Source of the DNA: a virus
Lineage: Duplodnaviria; Heunggongvirae; Uroviricota; Caudoviricetes
Strand: one strand, 5' to 3'
Virus record (IMG/VR): IMGVR_UViG_3300028991_000022
Length of the DNA: 34,776 nucleotides
This document shows, piece after piece, positions 1,760 through 32,309 of the stretch. A program made the position numbers and the translations under genes. The notes under the pieces are model-generated. The model ran no database searches, was not told the DNA's origin, and saw only the letters and a program-made list of their open reading frames with translations. Position 1 is the stretch's first letter. Every line of letters begins with the position of its first letter.

Positions 1760-2335
1760 CTACGGCAGTGCTGGCCATTCAATATCCTGTGCAGTTGACG
1801 TATCAACACGGTTCAGCAACACCCGATACTTTTTCCAGGCTTCCAGCAATGAGGTTTCTTCCTCCGTTGCGATTTCCAGATCTACAGCATCCTGAAGTGG
1901 CGCAATATGCTCACTGGCTACCTGCATCAGGCTGTTTTTTGTTTCTTCCGCCTCTCGGATCCGGAACAGTTTTTCTGCTTCTGCATCTTTCACCCAGGCT
2001 GTGCCGTTCCACTTCTGAAACTCCCCTTCCGGCGATAACCAGGTAACATTTTCCGGTAACGGACCGAGTTCAGAAATAAATAACGCGTCCCCTGACGCTA
2101 CGTCATAAACCGTTTTACCCCGATGGTCTTCATCGAGATGCCACGATGCCTTATCACTGTTGAAAACAGCCACAAAGCCAGCAGGAATATCTGGTGGTGC
2201 AATATCGGTACTGTTTGCTGGCAGACCTGTATGAGGCGGAATATATGCGTCACCTTCACCAATAAATTCATTAGTTCCGGCCAGCAGATTATAAATTTTT
2301 ATGGTCCGTGGTTGTTCACTCATTCTGAATGCCAT
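1760..2335 (-). CDS. tfa: Tail fiber assembly protein (Tfa)
   Basis: 191-aa ORF immediately downstream of stf; length and position match lambda-type Tfa chaperones; C-terminal EWPALP-type tail. Confidence 0.85.
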
Positions 2336-26419: not shown

Positions 26420-26728
26420 TGCTGGTTCAGAGTTAAAAAAACTATTATTTTTTTCATAATGTTACCGTAATATGTGAGTATCCATCGACTAGACACTAAG
26501 CAAAAAAGCTCCCGAAGGAGCCTTCATTTTCACTTTCTTAAATCTAACGACAGATGGCTAACATTTAAGTATTGTGAAATATTATCAAATGTAATCATCA
26601 TTGATTTACAAAAGATACATTTTGCCCCGAAAGGATTTCTGTCAGAAACATCAAAAGATGATGTTCTATACTGAGAACCATGGCAACACGGGCATCTAAA
26701 GTGAATATGGTTTGTAATATTTTCTACC

Positions 26729-26941
26729 TCAAAGTGCCACTACATGAACAGCTGCAGGGCCTTTAGGTCCGTTCTCAATACCAAATTCGACTTCCTGATT
26801 CTCAGTTAACGTTTTGAAATCGTTGCTCTGAATAGCTGAGAAATGCACAAACACATCTTTGCTACCATCTTTCGGCGTGATGAAACCAAAACCTTTTTCA
26901 GGGTTAAACCATTTCACTAAACCAGTCATTTTGTTAGACAT
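26729..26941 (-). CDS. cspI: Cold shock protein, CspA family (CspI/CspB-like)
   Basis: [70 protein letters not shown]; RNP1-like KGFGFI and RNP2-like VFVHF motifs; long AT-rich leader upstream (26945-27300), typical of csp genes. Confidence 0.9.
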
Positions 26942-27305
26942 CATTATTACCTTTTGAAGAAGTTAGCCCTTGGGCAGAATGGTCCGAAAAAAAAATATCA
27001 GAGAGAAAAACCAACAAGGAAATCTCAAGAGGTACAAATAATAAAATTATAACAATGACTGCTTCAGATAATTTTGTAACAAACCAGAACACCATTAACG
27101 CATGATTAACCAACCATAGCAAGGATTACTTTTGTAAAGAAAAACACACGAATGAAACAATAGCTTTATTTATTAATAAAACGTGTCATTCTGTCTAATG
27201 ACCTTTTATCTTACCCTTAAGATTTCAAGGATTTTGACTCATGGAAGAGTCCTTTTTATTTAAATTTCACATTCAGCGCTAAAAATAATCCGATTTAATA
27301 TTAAT

Positions 27306-28329
<1,024 letters not shown>

Positions 28330-28333
<4 letters not shown>

Positions 28334-28641
28334 AGATATTTATGATGAGGACGCTCGTGCTTATTGGCAGGATTTTCAATCTTAAAGGAGTACTGATGCT
28401 GCAGATAAGACTCAACTTTTTCTGACAATTTTTCTGCTACTTCCAGGAAGACTTGCCGGACGCTCATTCTGGCTGCTGCCTCATAAAACTCCAGCGCAGC
28501 TCCTTCAACACGGTCCATGGCGACATCCAGGCCAAAAATTTCACCGTCAAAGCGTTCTTTGTCCTGTAAGGCTACAGTTACCGTAACTTTATTCTCAAAA
28601 TTACGGACTCCTTTCACAACCAGTTCATAGTCTTGAGTCAT
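28330..28641 (-). CDS. ydfR: DUF1327 family protein (YdfR-like), between holin and endolysin
   Basis: 103-aa ORF; same size and position as ydfR of the K-12 Qin prophage (between essQ and the lysozyme gene). Identified from memory of family and context. Confidence 0.6.
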
Positions 28642-28645
28642 TGGA

Positions 28646-28861
28646 TTACTCTCCTCTCGCAGCCTTACGCCTGTCTTCTTTAATCTTGAAATAAAGATTT
28701 GTCAGGTACGTCAGCAGGCCAAATACCAGGCTACCCAGCACACCTATTGCTGCCCACTGTGAGGGCGTGACTTTATCGAGCAGCTGTAAAAACCAGTAGC
28801 CAGCACTGCCTGCGGAGGTGCCGTAGGCAATGCCTGTTGAAATTTTGTCCATGGATTTCAT
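28646..28861 (-). CDS. S: Pinholin, phage 21 S-type, with dual start (antiholin S71 / holin S68)
   Basis: From ATG 28859-28861: [71 protein letters not shown]. The MKSM dual-start motif and two transmembrane segments match phage 21 S21; strong SD GGAGGTG upstream. Confidence 0.9.
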
Positions 28862-28964
28862 AGCCTCACCTCCGCACGGAACGGATGGCATAGTTATTAT
28901 GTGTAGGCTTCCAGACACATCAATCAGAGCCTTAATTGATATATATGCTGGAGACGATGCAATA

Positions 28965-29112: not shown

Positions 29113-29508
29113 CTAACCTCGCATGTCAAAGCCAGATTTCTGAAAATCTCTGTAGACTTCCGGATTGTTGAAGGCCGGAAATTTGGCTTTATGAGCTGCG
29201 GACTTTATCGCTTCGCAATAGGCTTTATCACCGTTACTGGTAGATATTTTTAACGCCGTGCCATCCTGAGAGAATTCCATATGCAACCTGCATTTTTTCC
29301 CTTTCCAGTTATGCGGCTCATCAAGTTTGGCATTAATTGCAGCTCTGATTCCCCGCGCTTGCGCCCCCCATTCATCCTGATCATCCCAGCGTCCTGAACT
29401 GCAACTACCTGTAGCAGTAGTTTTGTGGCAATCTGAAGGGTGTAAAGGTGTGCATCCCGCAACAAAACCGACCCAAAAAGTCAACATAACGATTTTCTTT
29501 AATCCCAC
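29113..29508 (-). CDS. Lipoprotein with diverged TolA C-terminal domain (TolAIII)-like fold, copy A
   Basis: 131-aa ORF with signal peptide plus lipobox (MGLKKIVMLTFWVGFVAGC, +2 residue Thr). C-terminal KGKKCRLHMEFSQDGTALKISTSNGDKAYCEAIKSAAHKAKFPAFNNPEVYRDFQ parallels the second copy and TolA domain III (two conserved Cys, PxxxxEVY). Confidence 0.65.
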   Translation of the reverse strand: MGLKKIVMLTFWVGFVAGCTPLHPSDCHKTTATGSCSSGRWDDQDEWGAQARGIRAAINAKLDEPHNWKGKKCRLHMEFSQDGTALKISTSNGDKAYCEAIKSAAHKAKFPAFNNPEVYRDFQKSGFDMRG

Positions 29509-29658
29509 TTCTTGCTCCTCAATCCATTAAAATCTCAGCAATAGTAGTTGTTACGTCCGCCACTGGCTCAGAGCTGACTATCCGCTAAATTTAGCTCAGT
29601 GCCGTAGTTGTGTCAGAACAAACCTAAGCCGAAACCGTTTATTACAAAACAATAAATA

Positions 29659-30087
29659 TCAGGGTTTAAAATCCAGCACCCCATTTTGAAATACTTTATA
29701 TACTTCCGGCGAAGGGGGGGCAGGTATATCAGCATTCTTTATCGCATTCATCGCTTCACGACATAAATCGAGGTCTCCACTTTCTCTTTTAACCTCCAGT
29801 AGAAGGCCATTCGGGGCCATATGCATTCTCAGTGTACACTCTTTTCCTGAATACTTACTCGCATCCCCGAACTGTTTTTCGATGGCGCTCTTGATTTGAT
29901 GGGCATACAGACGGATATCCTCACTAACATCAGAAGTACGTTCAGATGAACTCACATACTGTGTCTCTATTGCTTTATCGGAGTAATATGATGTACGGTC
30001 ATGATAATTTGTCGATACAGCATCAGTGCACCCGATAATAATCCCACTAATAATCAACGTAAGAATTGATGCGCTACGAAAACCCAT
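29659..30087 (-). CDS. Lipoprotein with TolA C-terminal domain (TolAIII)-like domain, copy B
   Basis: 142-aa ORF with lipobox (MGFRSASILTLIISGIIIGC, +2 Thr). C-terminus YAHQIKSAIEKQFGDASKYSGKECTLRMHMAPNGLLLEVKRESGDLDLCREAMNAIKNADIPAPPSPEVYKVFQNGVLDFKP closely parallels the E. coli TolA C-terminus as I recall it (YAGQIKSAIESKFYDASSYAGKTCTLRIKLAPDGMLLDIKPEGGDPALCQAALAAAKLAKIPKPPSQAVYEVFKNAPLDFKP). Confidence 0.8.
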   Translation of the reverse strand: MGFRSASILTLIISGIIIGCTDAVSTNYHDRTSYYSDKAIETQYVSSSERTSDVSEDIRLYAHQIKSAIEKQFGDASKYSGKECTLRMHMAPNGLLLEVKRESGDLDLCREAMNAIKNADIPAPPSPEVYKVFQNGVLDFKP

Positions 30088-30620
30088 TTTTCCTCACATA
30101 TGTCATATAGTAAAGAATTATATATACCGTTGTTTTGGACGCTCAAACAGCGAATCAGATCAAATAAAACGCACATTTGTTAACATTTACACAAAGTCTG
30201 CGTGGGATATTCTGAAAGAATATCCATAATGTGGAGAGAATCTATTGAAGTGCATGGTGCCGGGTGCCTCCCGGTGAATTCAGTACCAGCACCTGAATCC
30301 GCGATTATCCCATATACCTACTCGCTGATTGCCCCTCCGCACAGGGGGATTCACCATGCCAGTTTCTTTTAACAAACTCCCCGCAAACCAGAGAACAGTC
30401 AACCGCCTGAATTGTGAAGTATTTAAAAATTTCTCCCGCTAACTGATACCCGGCTAACAGTCTGGCGTTTTCTTTTTCAGCAACGGGAAAGCAACAACCA
30501 CCACACCCGCCACCAGCACACTGTCAGCCAGCACTGACATTATCCGGCTGCTGCAATGCCATTCACAAAAACAGTAAGCAATCACTTTTTACCGTAACAG
30601 GTGATAATCCAGATATGTAT

Positions 30621-30974
30621 CTACCCCAGATGAGTAATCCGAAGTTCATCCATACCACAGGTCCTGGCTATTCTGTTGTACTCCTGAACAAGAGCAAATA
30701 ATTCTGAATTAGCAACCATGAACTCATCGCAAACCCTCTGTATAGCATCACTATTCAGAATAATAACGTCTCTTCCCGAAAGACGATCAGGAGCACAGAA
30801 CAAAACTGTCAAACGGCTGAAGGCCTTTGCTCGTGCTGCATTGACTATATCAATACGCTGCCTAAGGATGAAACACCCCGACGCCTCATCAATATTCACT
30901 CTACCCACACCATATGAATGATAAATATTTAATGCTGAAAAAACCATTAGACCGTATAACAAACACTCAATCAA
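30621..30974 (-). CDS. Hypothetical protein (117 aa), first gene of the moron locus downstream of the tRNAs
   Basis: ORF MIECLLYGLMVFSALNIYHSYGVGRVNIDEASGCFILRQ...; hydrophobic N-terminus; no recognised motif. Start uncertain. Confidence 0.45.
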   Translation of the reverse strand: MIECLLYGLMVFSALNIYHSYGVGRVNIDEASGCFILRQRIDIVNAARAKAFSRLTVLFCAPDRLSGRDVIILNSDAIQRVCDEFMVANSELFALVQEYNRIARTCGMDELRITHLG

Positions 30975-31084: not shown

Positions 31085-31161
31085 TGGCGCGCTGTACTGG
31101 ATTCGAACCAGTGACCGATTGCTTAGAAGGCAATTGCTCTGTCCGGCTGAGCTAACAACGC
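31085..31161 (-). tRNA. tRNA-Arg (anticodon UCU)
   Basis: 77-nt minus-strand sequence GCGTTGTTAGCTCAGCCGGACAGAGCAATTGCCTTCTAAGCAATCGGTCACTGGTTCGAATCCAGTACAGCGCGCCA; cloverleaf with anticodon loop CTTCTAA (UCU), T-arm GGTTCGAATCC and encoded CCA. Confidence 0.9.
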
Positions 31162-31229
31162 TGAATACCGATAATGGACCGCCATCGGGGACCCGCCCCC
31201 GCACCAACAACCCTGTTATCGTGTCGTCT

Positions 31230-31270
31230 NNNNNNNNNNNNNNNNNNNNNNNNNNNNNNNNNNNNNNNNN
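31230..31270. other. Assembly gap (41 N)
   Basis: Run of n characters; removes the 3' CCA end of the adjacent tRNA and may hide a further tRNA. Confidence 0.95.
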
Positions 31271-31344
31271 GTGGCCCTTGCTGGATTTGAACCAGCGACC
31301 TGGCGATTATGAGTCGCTCGCTCTCACCACTGAGCTAAAGGGCC
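31271..31344 (-). tRNA. tRNA-Ile2-like (anticodon CAU, lysidine-type) or tRNA-Met; 3' end truncated by the gap
   Basis: Minus strand GGCCCTTTAGCTCAGTGGTGAGAGCGAGCGACTCATAATCGCCAGGTCGCTGGTTCAAATCCAGCAAGGGCCAC; anticodon loop CTCATAA; closely resembles E. coli ileX-type tRNA as recalled. Confidence 0.85.
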
Positions 31345-31383
31345 GGGAGCAGAATAATAACGGTCCGTAATTAATTCCGCAAT

Positions 31384-31412
31384 AAAAAACCCGCTCGGCG
31401 GCGGGTTGTAGA
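31384..31412 (-). terminator. tR'-like rho-independent terminator downstream of the late promoter
   Basis: Minus strand reads AACCCGC-CGCCGA-GCGGGTT followed by TTTTATT; about 45-60 nt downstream of the predicted pR' start site. Confidence 0.7.
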
Positions 31413-31454
31413 AACTCTTCTAACGTCAGGCATAAAAAGCCCATCATTATGACG

Positions 31455-31482
31455 AATTTACCACAGATTCCGGAAAAATCAA
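31455..31482 (-). promoter_or_regulatory. pR'-like late promoter (with presumed Q-utilisation site)
   Basis: Minus strand reads TTGATT-(16 nt)-TAAATT immediately downstream of the Q stop codon; compare lambda pR' TTGACT-(17)-TAAATT as recalled. Confidence 0.7.
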
Positions 31483-31487
31483 CCTTG

Positions 31488-32309
31488 TTACCTAGTTACC
31501 TTTTTTAACTGCCGCTCAGCCCATGCTTCTTCAATATCAAACCGGGTCACCAGCGCATCATAGAATTTCTTAACTGTTTTTTCCCATGACGCGCGTGTTA
31601 TCTGGTTTGTCACCTCGCATATAGCATTAAATGCCTCCGTTGATGGTAGTCTTTCATAGCCACGACCACCACAACGCTGGCAGTCTCTGATAACAGGCAT
31701 ACCACGTTTTACCGACTCTTCACGGTGAATGGCGACACCACGCCCACGGCAATCCTTACAGGCGGTGGAAACCTCACCCTTTCCGCCACACTCCGGACAG
31801 GCAACTTTTACCACCTCCCTGACTTTTTTCCATTCTTCCCAGTAAGACGGATACACACCTTTCGTACACTTTGCCCATACCGGCGGCTTACCATCCGGAT
31901 ACTGGACCTTGTTTGTAAAAACTATGCTTTCAATAAATTTTTCCCCATAGCAACAAGGGCACTGCTTTTTACTCGCTGCGCTGCGGGCATAATCCTCAAA
32001 AGCGTACGAAGCCATAATGCGCATCACTACCGGTTTTATTTCTGCCGGAAGTTTTCTCAACGCCGCCACACGATCGCACCGACTGAGTGCATAATCTGCC
32101 AGTAATTCTGTTGCCCGCGCCCTGTCATTCATACTGATGCCCATTTTCCCCAGGAACGCAGAAAAACCCATCTCAGCCCGATTCTGTGTCATGCCCTGCG
32201 CGGCCATCACATCAGTGATACTCAGCGCATCTTTTGACGTTGAGGCCGATGCATCGGTCAGGCCAGGGGATTTTGGGGAGTAGTATTTCGGTAAATCTTC
32301 CAGTTTCAT
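31488..32309 (-). CDS. Q: Late gene antiterminator Q
   Basis: 273-aa ORF directly upstream of the pR'-like promoter; Cys-rich repeats CPECGGKG, CKDCRGRG and CQRCGGRG (CxxCxGxG zinc-finger type) plus CPCC; preceded by rusA as in lambdoid nin/Q regions. Confidence 0.85.
   Translation of the reverse strand: MKLEDLPKYYSPKSPGLTDASASTSKDALSITDVMAAQGMTQNRAEMGFSAFLGKMGISMNDRARATELLADYALSRCDRVAALRKLPAEIKPVVMRIMASYAFEDYARSAASKKQCPCCYGEKFIESIVFTNKVQYPDGKPPVWAKCTKGVYPSYWEEWKKVREVVKVACPECGGKGEVSTACKDCRGRGVAIHREESVKRGMPVIRDCQRCGGRGYERLPSTEAFNAICEVTNQITRASWEKTVKKFYDALVTRFDIEEAWAERQLKKVTR

What the first reader, a model, noticed from the sequence alone, without database searches (positions are those of the whole stretch)
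31085..31482. Late promoter, tR' and rare-codon tRNA cluster arranged as in Stx phages, interrupted by an assembly gap
The pR'-like promoter (TTGATT-16-TAAATT), a tR'-like terminator and then tRNA-Ile(CAU) and tRNA-Arg(UCU) reproduce the pR'-tR'-ileZ-argN-argO arrangement that precedes stx in Stx phages, but here the cargo is different. A 41-nt N run removes the CCA end of the Ile tRNA, and the 68 bp between the gap and tRNA-Arg (31162-31229) could be the degenerate remains of a third tRNA.
Basis: partly seen in the sequence, partly recalled or inferred. Interest (0 to 1): 0.5.

Follow-up and report, generated by a model that had tools for sequence, protein, structure and literature searches.

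The report
Prophage late promoter with tRNA cluster
This is the ordinary late-gene control region of a common E. coli lambda-like prophage, with two working rare-codon tRNA genes and a dead third one half-hidden by a small assembly gap; identical copies are already annotated in hundreds of public genomes.

Summary
Downstream of a λ-family Q antiterminator gene (32309..31488) sit a late promoter TTGATT-16-TAAATT with a λ-like pause motif AATGATGGG, an intrinsic terminator (31407..31382), a conserved tRNA promoter ("pT" in the 933W record), tRNA-Ile2(CAU), the 41-N run, 68 bp, then tRNA-Arg(UCU).

Public E. coli genomes close the gap. The nearest, strain 09-00049, is 99.97% identical over window 9800-34626 and holds 34 nt there, not 41. 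Those bases supply the last CA of the Ile tRNA, a 7-nt spacer and the first 25 nt of an 80-nt element homologous to Stx-phage argN. The element keeps its acceptor, D and T stems but has no anticodon loop and a broken T loop. ARAGORN and Rfam both reject it.

Stx2e phage P27 has the same replaced arm. About 777 complete E. coli genomes and phage mEp460_ev081 carry this module, so it is already known. The cargo is not stx but small moron genes, an sRNA and two TolA-domain genes.

One side lead: the remnant resembles a wider family of tRNA-shaped elements, including an unannotated one beside yahN in E. coli K-12.

The parts
31488..32309 (-). Q antiterminator gene (273 aa), lambda-Q family, with a ~68-aa insertion carrying extra CxxC motifs
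   Evidence: Pfam PF03589 E 6.3e-55. phmmer against PDB 7UBM_Q (lambda Q) gives E 3.5e-40, aligning residues 1-113 and 182-273. PGAP calls it 'antitermination protein' in identical genomes.
31455..31482 (-). pR'-like late promoter: -35 TTGATT (31482..31477), 16-nt spacer containing the palindrome TTCCGGAA, TG at -15/-14, -10 TAAATT (31460..31455)
   Evidence: Read from sequence. The -10 is identical to lambda pR' read from NC_001416. It starts 6 nt after the Q stop codon.
31440..31448 (-). Predicted +1 to +9, AATGATGGG: a -10-like sigma-dependent pause element, in the same register as lambda pR' AACGATGGG
   Evidence: The motif TAAATTN6AAYGATGGG occurs once in the window and in 0 of 100 shuffles. 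Its function is inferred from lambda.
31382..31407 (-). tR'-like intrinsic terminator (7-bp GC-rich stem, 6-nt loop, T6), about 41-66 nt after the predicted start
   Evidence: Terminator scan. The 67-nt leader folds with this hairpin at its 3' end. It resembles the first terminator annotated after pR' in 933W.
31354..31382 (-). pT-like tRNA promoter TTGCGG-17-TATTAT, overlapping the terminator's T tract
   Evidence: Aligns with the feature annotated 'pT; putative tRNA promoter' (TTGCAG-17-TATTAT) in the 933W record. Homology to Stx phages begins here. Only 3 of 6 positions match in the -35, so activity is unproven.
31271..31344 (-). tRNA-Ile2 (anticodon CAU), the ileZ homolog; the final CA of its CCA end lies in the gap
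   Evidence: Rfam 72.5 bits and an ARAGORN call. Identical over the visible bases to ileZ of Stx2a_1447. 68 of 76 bases match K-12 ileX. PGAP calls it 'tRNA-Ile'.
31230..31270 (.). 41-nt N run. In relatives it is replaced by 34 nt (minus strand): CA + TCACAAA + CCGCCATTAGCTTATCAGGAAGAGC
   Evidence: L127 is 99.97% identical on both flanks and holds 34 nt here. The same 34 nt occur in L001 and in phage mEp460_ev081.
31175..31229 (-). 3' 55 nt of the 80-nt argN remnant (pseudo-tRNA): replaced anticodon arm, 6-nt T loop GCGGGT, intact 3' acceptor strand plus TCCA
   Evidence: Alignments with argN. No ARAGORN call in L001 or L002. No Rfam tRNA hit at E<=10. Folds as a cloverleaf with a 3-nt loop in the middle arm.
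31162..31174 (-). 13-nt spacer TTATCGGTATTCA, identical to the argN-argO spacer of Stx2a_1447
31085..31161 (-). tRNA-Arg (anticodon UCU), the argO homolog, with an encoded CCA end
   Evidence: Rfam 68 bits and an ARAGORN call. One difference from Stx-phage argO, a U-A pair changed to U-G in the acceptor stem.
29113..30947 (-). Cargo at the position stx occupies in Stx phages: phrog_2873 ORF (30947..30621), DUF3927/TciB-like 43-aa ORF (30585..30454), STnc100 sRNA (30388..30198), and two TolA C-terminal-domain lipoprotein-like genes (30087..29659 and 29508..29113)
27306..28918 (-). Lysis cassette (holin EssD, DUF1327, lysozyme RrrQ, RzpQ), followed by head and tail genes on the same strand: the rest of the late operon

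Best explanation
This is the late-transcription control region of a Qin/mEp460-like lambdoid prophage of E. coli.

Shown:
- A lambda-family Q gene is followed within 6 nt by a sigma-70 promoter whose -10 and first nine transcribed bases match lambda pR'.
- An intrinsic terminator follows.
- Next comes a module shared with Stx phages: a weak promoter (pT), tRNA-Ile2(CAU), a dead argN homolog and tRNA-Arg(UCU).
- Beyond it lie moron cargo, lysis genes and structural genes, all on the same strand.

Inferred mechanism:
- In the lysogen, RNA polymerase starts at the late promoter and stops at the terminator, giving an RNA of about 60-66 nt. The tRNAs may be made at a low level from pT.
- After induction, Q binds near the promoter. 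It loads onto polymerase held at the sigma-dependent pause and makes it resistant to terminators.
- Transcription then runs through the tRNA array into cargo, lysis and morphogenesis genes.
- The tRNAs are cut out by host RNase P and 3'-end nucleases. They boost decoding of AUA (after lysidine modification by TilS) and of AGA/AGG. These codons are enriched in the genes just downstream.

The third element is a non-decoding relic of argN. The N run is a scaffold gap of estimated size at a repeat present several times per genome.
For: - Q family.
- Promoter and pause motif against lambda.
- Terminator.
- tRNAs. The CAU tRNA matches K-12 ileX at 68 of 76 bases and keeps C4-G69 and C5-G68 (and direct reading). 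PGAP labels the same sequences tRNA-Ile and tRNA-Arg.
- Parallel annotated layout in 933W, including pR', qut, terminators and pT. P27.
- Gap closure: 34 nt in three independent records with identical flanks. The closest genomes carry 4-5 copies of this tRNA region (H6 and H7), which explains an assembly break here.
- argN remnant: homologous flanks but no anticodon loop and a 6-nt T loop. ARAGORN and Rfam reject it. Forms of 79, 80 and 81 nt and mosaics such as L031 and L054 point to relaxed constraint.
- Codon use: ATA 16.4 and AGA 12.1 per 1000 codons in cargo and lysis genes, against 4.2 and 3.2 in structural genes.
- All genes from Q to the tail genes lie on one strand.
Against: - No expression or termination data were available. 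Q dependence, pausing and pT activity are inferred by analogy.
- The promoter matches only 8 of 12 consensus positions and was not listed by the generic scan.
- The Q-binding element cannot be recognised by sequence. The spacer differs from lambda's.
- The codon enrichment rests on about 1150 codons, and the structural genes show none.
- The true content of the gap in this particular genome is unknown. Its 41 N against 34 nt could hide a 7-nt difference.
Confidence: 0.88

Rival explanations
1. The 80-nt argN-like element is not a dead gene but a functional, non-decoding tRNA-shaped RNA. It could be a processing signal, an enzyme decoy or an integration target. It would belong to a family that includes the conserved element beside yahN in the E. 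coli core genome.
For: - It still folds as a cloverleaf with a perfect 7-bp acceptor stem, D and T stems and a 3' UCCA.
- The same 80-nt sequence is the commonest variant in IMG/VR, in 20 of 120 loci.
- Elements with the same acceptor, D and T arms but different middle arms that still pair occur in at least 8 enterobacterial genera.
- The Escherichia copy is present in 5173 of 5426 genomes.
- Middle arms fold slightly better than shuffles, combined p about 0.001 on non-independent sequences.
Against: - In the window's form the T loop is 6 nt (GCGGGT) and lacks the TTCRA motif. The middle loop is 3 nt.
- Length variants of 79, 80 and 81 nt and mosaics exist.
- Its diversity is about 5 times that of ileZ in the same loci (a weak test).
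- Most family members miss the Rfam tRNA threshold.
- Individual fold p-values are mostly above 0.05.
- Copies outside Escherichia lie among IS elements and integrase fragments, as relics would.
- High frequency can be explained by hitch-hiking between two selected tRNAs.
Confidence: 0.08
2. The tRNAs are expressed only from their own promoter pT. The upstream hairpin is simply the terminator of the Q gene's transcript, and TTGATT/TAAATT is not a working promoter.
For: - pT is conserved with the annotated 933W pT.
- The late promoter matches only 8 of 12 consensus positions.
- The terminator lies about 80 nt after the Q stop codon.
Against: - The -10 plus the +1..+9 pause motif match lambda pR' in exact register, 0 of 100 shuffles.
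- The Q protein is a full-length lambda-Q homolog, which needs such a site.
- The layout matches the 933W annotation.
- The two explanations are not exclusive: pT may act in the lysogen and pR' after induction.
Confidence: 0.06
3. The CAU tRNA is a methionine tRNA, as ARAGORN and several phage records label it, rather than tRNA-Ile2.
For: ARAGORN labels it tRNA-Met. Many phage records say tRNA-Met.
Against: - 68 of 76 bases match K-12 ileX, which is annotated tRNA-Ile(CAU).
- PGAP calls the identical gene tRNA-Ile.
- The 933W, P27 and Stx2a_1447 records name it ileZ.
- C4-G69 and C5-G68 are present. From my own knowledge, these pairs are TilS determinants.
- ARAGORN names tRNAs from the anticodon alone.
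Confidence: 0.03

Closest known systems
Escherichia phage mEp460_ev081 (LR597641) and Qin-like prophages of E. coli such as strains 09-00049 and FDAARGOS_497
   Same: 100% identical on both sides of the gap across Q, promoter, terminator, both tRNAs and cargo. Gene order is the same from hokD/rem/ydfU/rusA/Q through the lysis genes.
   Different: Only the 41-N gap against 34 nt, and a 99-bp deletion in hokD in the window.
Stx2e phage P27 (AJ298298): ileZ, unannotated argN remnant, argO, stx2e
   Same: Two annotated tRNAs lie 101 nt apart. The spacer carries the same replaced anticodon arm, AGACGACACGATAACAGGGTTGTTGGTG.
   Different: P27 keeps a TTCGAGT T loop. A DNA methylase gene, not Q/pR', lies directly upstream. 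The cargo is stx2e.
Phage 933W late region: Q, pR', qut, terminators, pT, ileZ, argN, argO, stx2AB (NC_000924)
   Same: The order of elements is the same. pT, ileZ and argO are homologous. The first terminator is similar.
   Different: 933W has a different Q, 157 aa, described in its record as similar to H-19B and DLP12 Q. About 400 nt and two terminators separate pR' from the tRNAs. argN (UCG) is intact (shown in the aligned Stx2a_1447 phage). The cargo is Shiga toxin.
Phage lambda Q, pR', 6S RNA, tR'
   Same: Q is homologous end to end. The -10 TAAATT is identical, and the +1..+9 pause element matches at 8 of 9 positions in the same register.
   Different: Lambda has no tRNA genes, a 17-nt spacer with a different sequence (so a different Q-binding site), and a leader of about 194 nt before tR' (from my own knowledge). 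Q here has a ~68-aa insertion carrying extra CxxC motifs.

Membership tests
Lambda-type Q-dependent late promoter (pR'/qut) | Lies immediately downstream of a Q antiterminator gene of the lambda-Q family | tested here: met
   The -35 starts 6 nt after the stop codon of a PF03589 protein that aligns end to end with lambda Q, 7UBM
Lambda-type Q-dependent late promoter (pR'/qut) | A -10-like sigma-dependent pause element in the first transcribed bases, in register with the -10 | tested here: met
   TAAATT-N6-AATGATGGG against lambda TAAATT-N6-AACGATGGG; 0 of 100 shuffles. Pausing itself was not tested.
Lambda-type Q-dependent late promoter (pR'/qut) | A Q-binding element between -35 and -10 | not testable with these tools
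   The spacer TTTCCGGAATCTGTGG is unlike lambda's. No binding data are available.
Lambda-type Q-dependent late promoter (pR'/qut) | A promoter-proximal intrinsic terminator that Q must override | tested here: met
   Hairpin plus T6 at 31407..31382. Read-through was not tested.
tRNA-Ile2 (CAU, lysidine; ileX/ileY/ileZ) | A canonical tRNA with anticodon CAU that resembles host tRNA-Ile2 rather than tRNA-Met | tested here: met
   Rfam 72.5 bits; 68 of 76 bases match K-12 ileX; PGAP label tRNA-Ile
tRNA-Ile2 (CAU, lysidine; ileX/ileY/ileZ) | C34 modified to lysidine by TilS | not testable with these tools
   C4-G69 and C5-G68 are present by direct reading. Their role as TilS determinants is from my own knowledge.
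argO, tRNA-Arg(UCU) | A canonical tRNA with anticodon UCU, homologous to Stx-phage argO | tested here: met
   Rfam 68 bits; one difference from Stx2a_1447 argO, which keeps the base pair as U-G
argN, tRNA-Arg(UCG) | Homologous position and flanks between ileZ and argO | tested here: met
   The acceptor strands, the D arm, the T stem and both spacers align with argN
argN, tRNA-Arg(UCG) | A 7-nt anticodon loop with UCG, and a canonical T loop | tested here: not met
   The middle arm is replaced by a 7-bp stem with a 3-nt loop. The T loop is GCGGGT, 6 nt. No ARAGORN call. No Rfam hit at E<=10. It is therefore a pseudogene, not a member.
Stx-converting phage late region | stxA and stxB between the tRNA genes and the lysis cassette | tested here: not met
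   That interval holds a phrog_2873 ORF, a DUF3927 ORF, STnc100 and two TolA-C-domain genes

The most novel reading that the evidence does not exclude
The 'dead' argN may be one member of an undescribed family of tRNA-shaped, non-decoding RNAs in Enterobacteriaceae. Members share acceptor, D and T arms and have a variable hairpin in place of the anticodon arm. The family would include an unannotated 81-nt element next to yahN that is present in about 95% of E. coli genomes (K-12 345334-345414). Possible roles are a processing signal, a decoy for tRNA-targeting enzymes, or an island insertion site.
Probability: 0.08. Interest if true: 0.55.

Novelty: already known. Interest (0 to 1): 0.15.

Why it matters
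The practical value is limited to annotation.

- The gap can be filled with confidence from relatives.
- The CAU tRNA should be labelled Ile2, not Met.
- The spacer should be flagged as an argN pseudogene.

The region also illustrates that the pT-ileZ-argN-argO module moves as a cassette between lambdoid phages that have different Q genes and different cargo, Shiga toxin being only one. This is already established for Stx phages.

The only point that might repay further work is the wider family of tRNA-shaped relics, including the K-12 yahN-adjacent element, whose status as relic or functional RNA is not settled here.

Tried and rejected
- **Literature.** Searches for ileZ/argN/argO, for tRNA genes upstream of stx, and for xtpA or yahM with tRNA-like found nothing relevant. 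The P27 genome paper (PMC127862) is not held. Statements about published work therefore rest on GenBank record annotations or are marked as my own knowledge.
- **Diversity test.** I compared nucleotide diversity in the remnant, the tRNAs and the spacers. It was inconclusive. The sample is small and clonal, the search pattern fixed both ends of the element, and argO diversity is inflated by loci that carry a different tRNA there.
- **Pair counting.** Formal pair counting for the middle arm was not attempted. MAFFT does not align that arm, and a hand alignment would be fitted to the structure. I used a fold-versus-shuffle test instead, which gave only weak support.
- **Synteny.** I tested whether the copies in other genera share the yah neighbourhood. 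Only Escherichia species do.
- **Weak Rfam hits.** A YrlA hit (16 bits, E 1.1) spanning ileZ and the remnant was dismissed as chance. A Plastid-ycf2 hit on the strand opposite ileZ, far below its gathering score, was dismissed as an artefact.

Full report
**What is at the coordinates**

All features lie on the minus strand. Reading 5' to 3' on that strand:

| Feature | Coordinates | Evidence |
|---|---|---|
| Q gene, 273 aa | 32309..31488 | |
| -35 TTGATT | 31482..31477 | |
| 16-nt spacer | 31476..31461 | |
| -10 TAAATT, preceded by TG | 31460..31455 | |
| Terminator: GC-rich hairpin (31407..31388), then T6 | 31407..31382 | |
| tRNA(CAU), Rfam 72.5 bits | 31344..31272 | |
| N run, 41 nt, the only one in the window | 31270..31230 | |
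| 68 nt | 31229..31162 | |
| tRNA-Arg(UCU), Rfam 68 bits | 31161..31085 | |

**The promoter is a lambda-type late promoter**

- The upstream protein matches Pfam PF03589.
- It aligns with lambda Q (PDB 7UBM) over residues 1-113 and 182-273, E 3.5e-40. It is therefore a full-length lambda-family Q with a ~68-aa insertion that adds CxxC motifs.
- Lambda pR', read from NC_001416, is TTGACT-17-TAAATT-TGACTC-AACGATGGG.
- The window has TTGATT-16-TAAATT-CGTCAT-AATGATGGG. The -10 is identical. The first nine transcribed bases match at 8 of 9 positions in the same register.
- From my own knowledge, in lambda these bases form the -10-like element that holds sigma-70 polymerase at +16/+17 so that Q can load.
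- The combined motif occurs once in the window and in 0 of 100 shuffles.
- By analogy the start is near 31448. The terminated leader would then be about 60-66 nt, and it folds with the terminator hairpin at its end.
- The generic promoter scan missed this site because it matches only 8 of 12 consensus positions.

**A second promoter**

The 933W record annotates, in order: pR', qut, two terminators, 'pT; putative tRNA promoter' (TTGCAG-17-TATTAT), ileZ, argN, argO and stx2AB. The window conserves TTGCGG-17-TATTAT at 31382..31354. Homology with Stx phages begins there. The shared cassette is therefore pT, ileZ, argN, argO, placed here directly after tR'.

**The tRNAs**

- The CAU tRNA is identical over its visible bases to ileZ of an Stx2a phage.
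- It matches K-12 ileX at 68 of 76 bases.
- PGAP labels the identical gene tRNA-Ile. It is tRNA-Ile2, not Met. ARAGORN names tRNAs from the anticodon alone.
- The UCU tRNA differs from Stx-phage argO at one acceptor-stem position, which stays paired as U-G.

**Closing the gap**

- 777 complete E. coli genomes carry a place that covers at least 80% of the 611-nt query spanning the gap. All 25 records listed match both flanks at 100% identity, and their span is 604 nt, not 611.
- Strain 09-00049 is 99.97% identical to window 9800-34626 and holds 34 nt in the gap.
- The same 34 nt occur in strain FDAARGOS_497 and in phage mEp460_ev081.
- They read CA (the end of the Ile tRNA), TCACAAA (spacer) and CCGCCATTAGCTTATCAGGAAGAGC.
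- The closest strains carry 4-5 copies of this tRNA region. A short-read scaffold gap of estimated length is therefore the likely cause of the N run. A deliberate mask cannot be excluded, but the length mismatch argues against it.

**The third tRNA**

The last 25 nt of the gap fill (CCGCCATTAGCTTATCAGGAAGAGC) plus window 31229..31175 form an 80-nt element that aligns with argN, the tRNA-Arg(UCG), in Stx phages.

- Conserved: both acceptor strands, the D arm, the T stem, the 3' TCCA and both spacers.
- Changed: the anticodon arm is replaced by ACGACACGATAACAGGGTTGTTGGTG, and the T loop is GCGGGT.
- It still folds as a cloverleaf, but the middle arm is a 7-bp stem with a 3-nt loop.
- ARAGORN does not call it. 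Rfam gives no tRNA hit even at E<=10.
- Stx2e phage P27 is annotated with only ileZ and argO, and it has the same replaced arm with a normal T loop.
- In 120 IMG/VR loci there are 38 variants. The window's form is the commonest, at 20 loci. Forms of 79, 80 and 81 nt and mosaics occur: L031 has the replaced arm with a good T loop, and L054 has a good arm with a bad T loop.
- Among loci with the replaced arm, about half carry this same promoter and terminator. None of the 84 loci without that replaced arm and with enough upstream sequence to test has this promoter.

The best label is an argN pseudogene.

**A wider family**

A scan of one genome per species found only two intact argN genes and one copy of the window's form among 22 hits. 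The other 19 keep the same acceptor and D arms, and nearly all an intact T arm, but have non-canonical middle arms.

- Eleven come from Escherichia/Shigella records or from metagenome bins that carry yah genes. Ten are identical 81-nt copies; the Shigella flexneri copy differs at one base.
- That element is single-copy in 5173 of 5426 E. coli genomes.
- In K-12 it lies at 345334-345414. It is not annotated as RNA and is overlapped by the small ORFs xtpA and yahM.
- In every yah-linked copy it lies next to yahN, while the genes on the other side vary.
- Copies in Salmonella, Citrobacter, Pseudocitrobacter, Buttiauxella, Brenneria and Lelliottia lie in unrelated contexts; three of the seven examined lie near IS transposase or integrase-like ORFs, identified by reading the ORF translations.
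- ARAGORN gives them inconsistent identities.
- Among the six loci searched, only the Salmonella diarizonae copy passes the Rfam tRNA threshold, at 38 bits.
- The middle arms fold slightly better than shuffled sequence. Individual p-values run from 0.006 to 0.56, and the combined value is about 0.001 on sequences that are not independent.

I read these as relics of mobile-element tRNAs or old insertion sites. A non-decoding function is not excluded, and I give it about 8%.

**Cargo and codon use**

Between argO and the holin gene lie:
- a phrog_2873 ORF (30947..30621), not annotated by PGAP;
- a 43-aa DUF3927/TciB-like ORF;
- the sRNA STnc100 (114 bits);
- two genes for lipoprotein-like proteins with a TolA C-terminal domain.

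There is no stx. These genes and the lysis genes use ATA at 16.4 and AGA at 12.1 per 1000 codons. The head and tail genes use 4.2 and 3.2. That fits the usual idea that the phage tRNAs help express AT-rich accessory genes, but the sample is small.

**Verdict**

The region is ordinary: the same sequence is present and annotated in hundreds of public genomes and in a sequenced phage. Interest is low. The only loose end is the tRNA-shaped family noted above.

Noticed in passing
L151 7335-7415 (E. coli K-12 MG1655 345334-345414, + strand): An unannotated 81-nt tRNA-shaped element shares its acceptor, D and T arms with phage argN but has a 6-nt loop in the middle arm. The annotated small ORFs xtpA and yahM overlap it. 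It is present once in 5173 of 5426 complete E. coli genomes and always lies beside yahN, with a variable other flank.
   Followed up: partly
window 34626/34627: A 99-bp deletion relative to E. coli 09-00049 removes the first 86 nt of the hokD toxin gene plus 13 nt upstream, so hokD is probably inactive in this strain.
   Followed up: partly
window 30621-30947 (- strand): A 108-aa ORF directly after the tRNAs matches phage family phrog_2873 over its full length (E 2.2e-69). PGAP does not annotate it in the identical E. coli genomes. Its function is unknown.
   Followed up: partly
window 29113-30087 (- strand): Two paralogous genes encode lipoprotein-like proteins with a TolA C-terminal domain (PF06519, E 2.4e-23 and 1.3e-14). 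They sit where stx sits in Stx phages, next to a DUF3927/TciB-like ORF. They might act as periplasmic decoys against colicins or filamentous phages that use TolA. This is inference only.
   Followed up: no
window 30198-30388 (- strand); L142 4745-4907: The sRNA STnc100 (Rfam 114 bits) lies in the late operon downstream of the tRNAs. In a Lelliottia locus the same sRNA family directly follows a tRNA(CAU) plus tRNA-like pair, which suggests the sRNA travels with this module.
   Followed up: no
window 31767-31970 (- strand), residues 114-181 of Q: The Q protein has an insertion of about 68 aa relative to lambda Q. The insertion adds two CxxC motifs, giving a DnaJ-like arrangement of four such motifs (weak PF00684 hit, below its cutoff). 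It matches phrog_127 over its full length, so this longer form is common.
   Followed up: no
window 31464-31471 (- strand): The promoter spacer contains the perfect 8-bp palindrome TTCCGGAA, at the position where lambda Q binds its own promoter. It is a candidate Q-binding element and was not tested.
   Followed up: no
window 1794-1992 and 26683-27100 (- strand): Rfam hits to IS009 (226.7 bits) and to the cspA thermoregulator (109 bits, at the cspI gene of the prophage).
   Followed up: no
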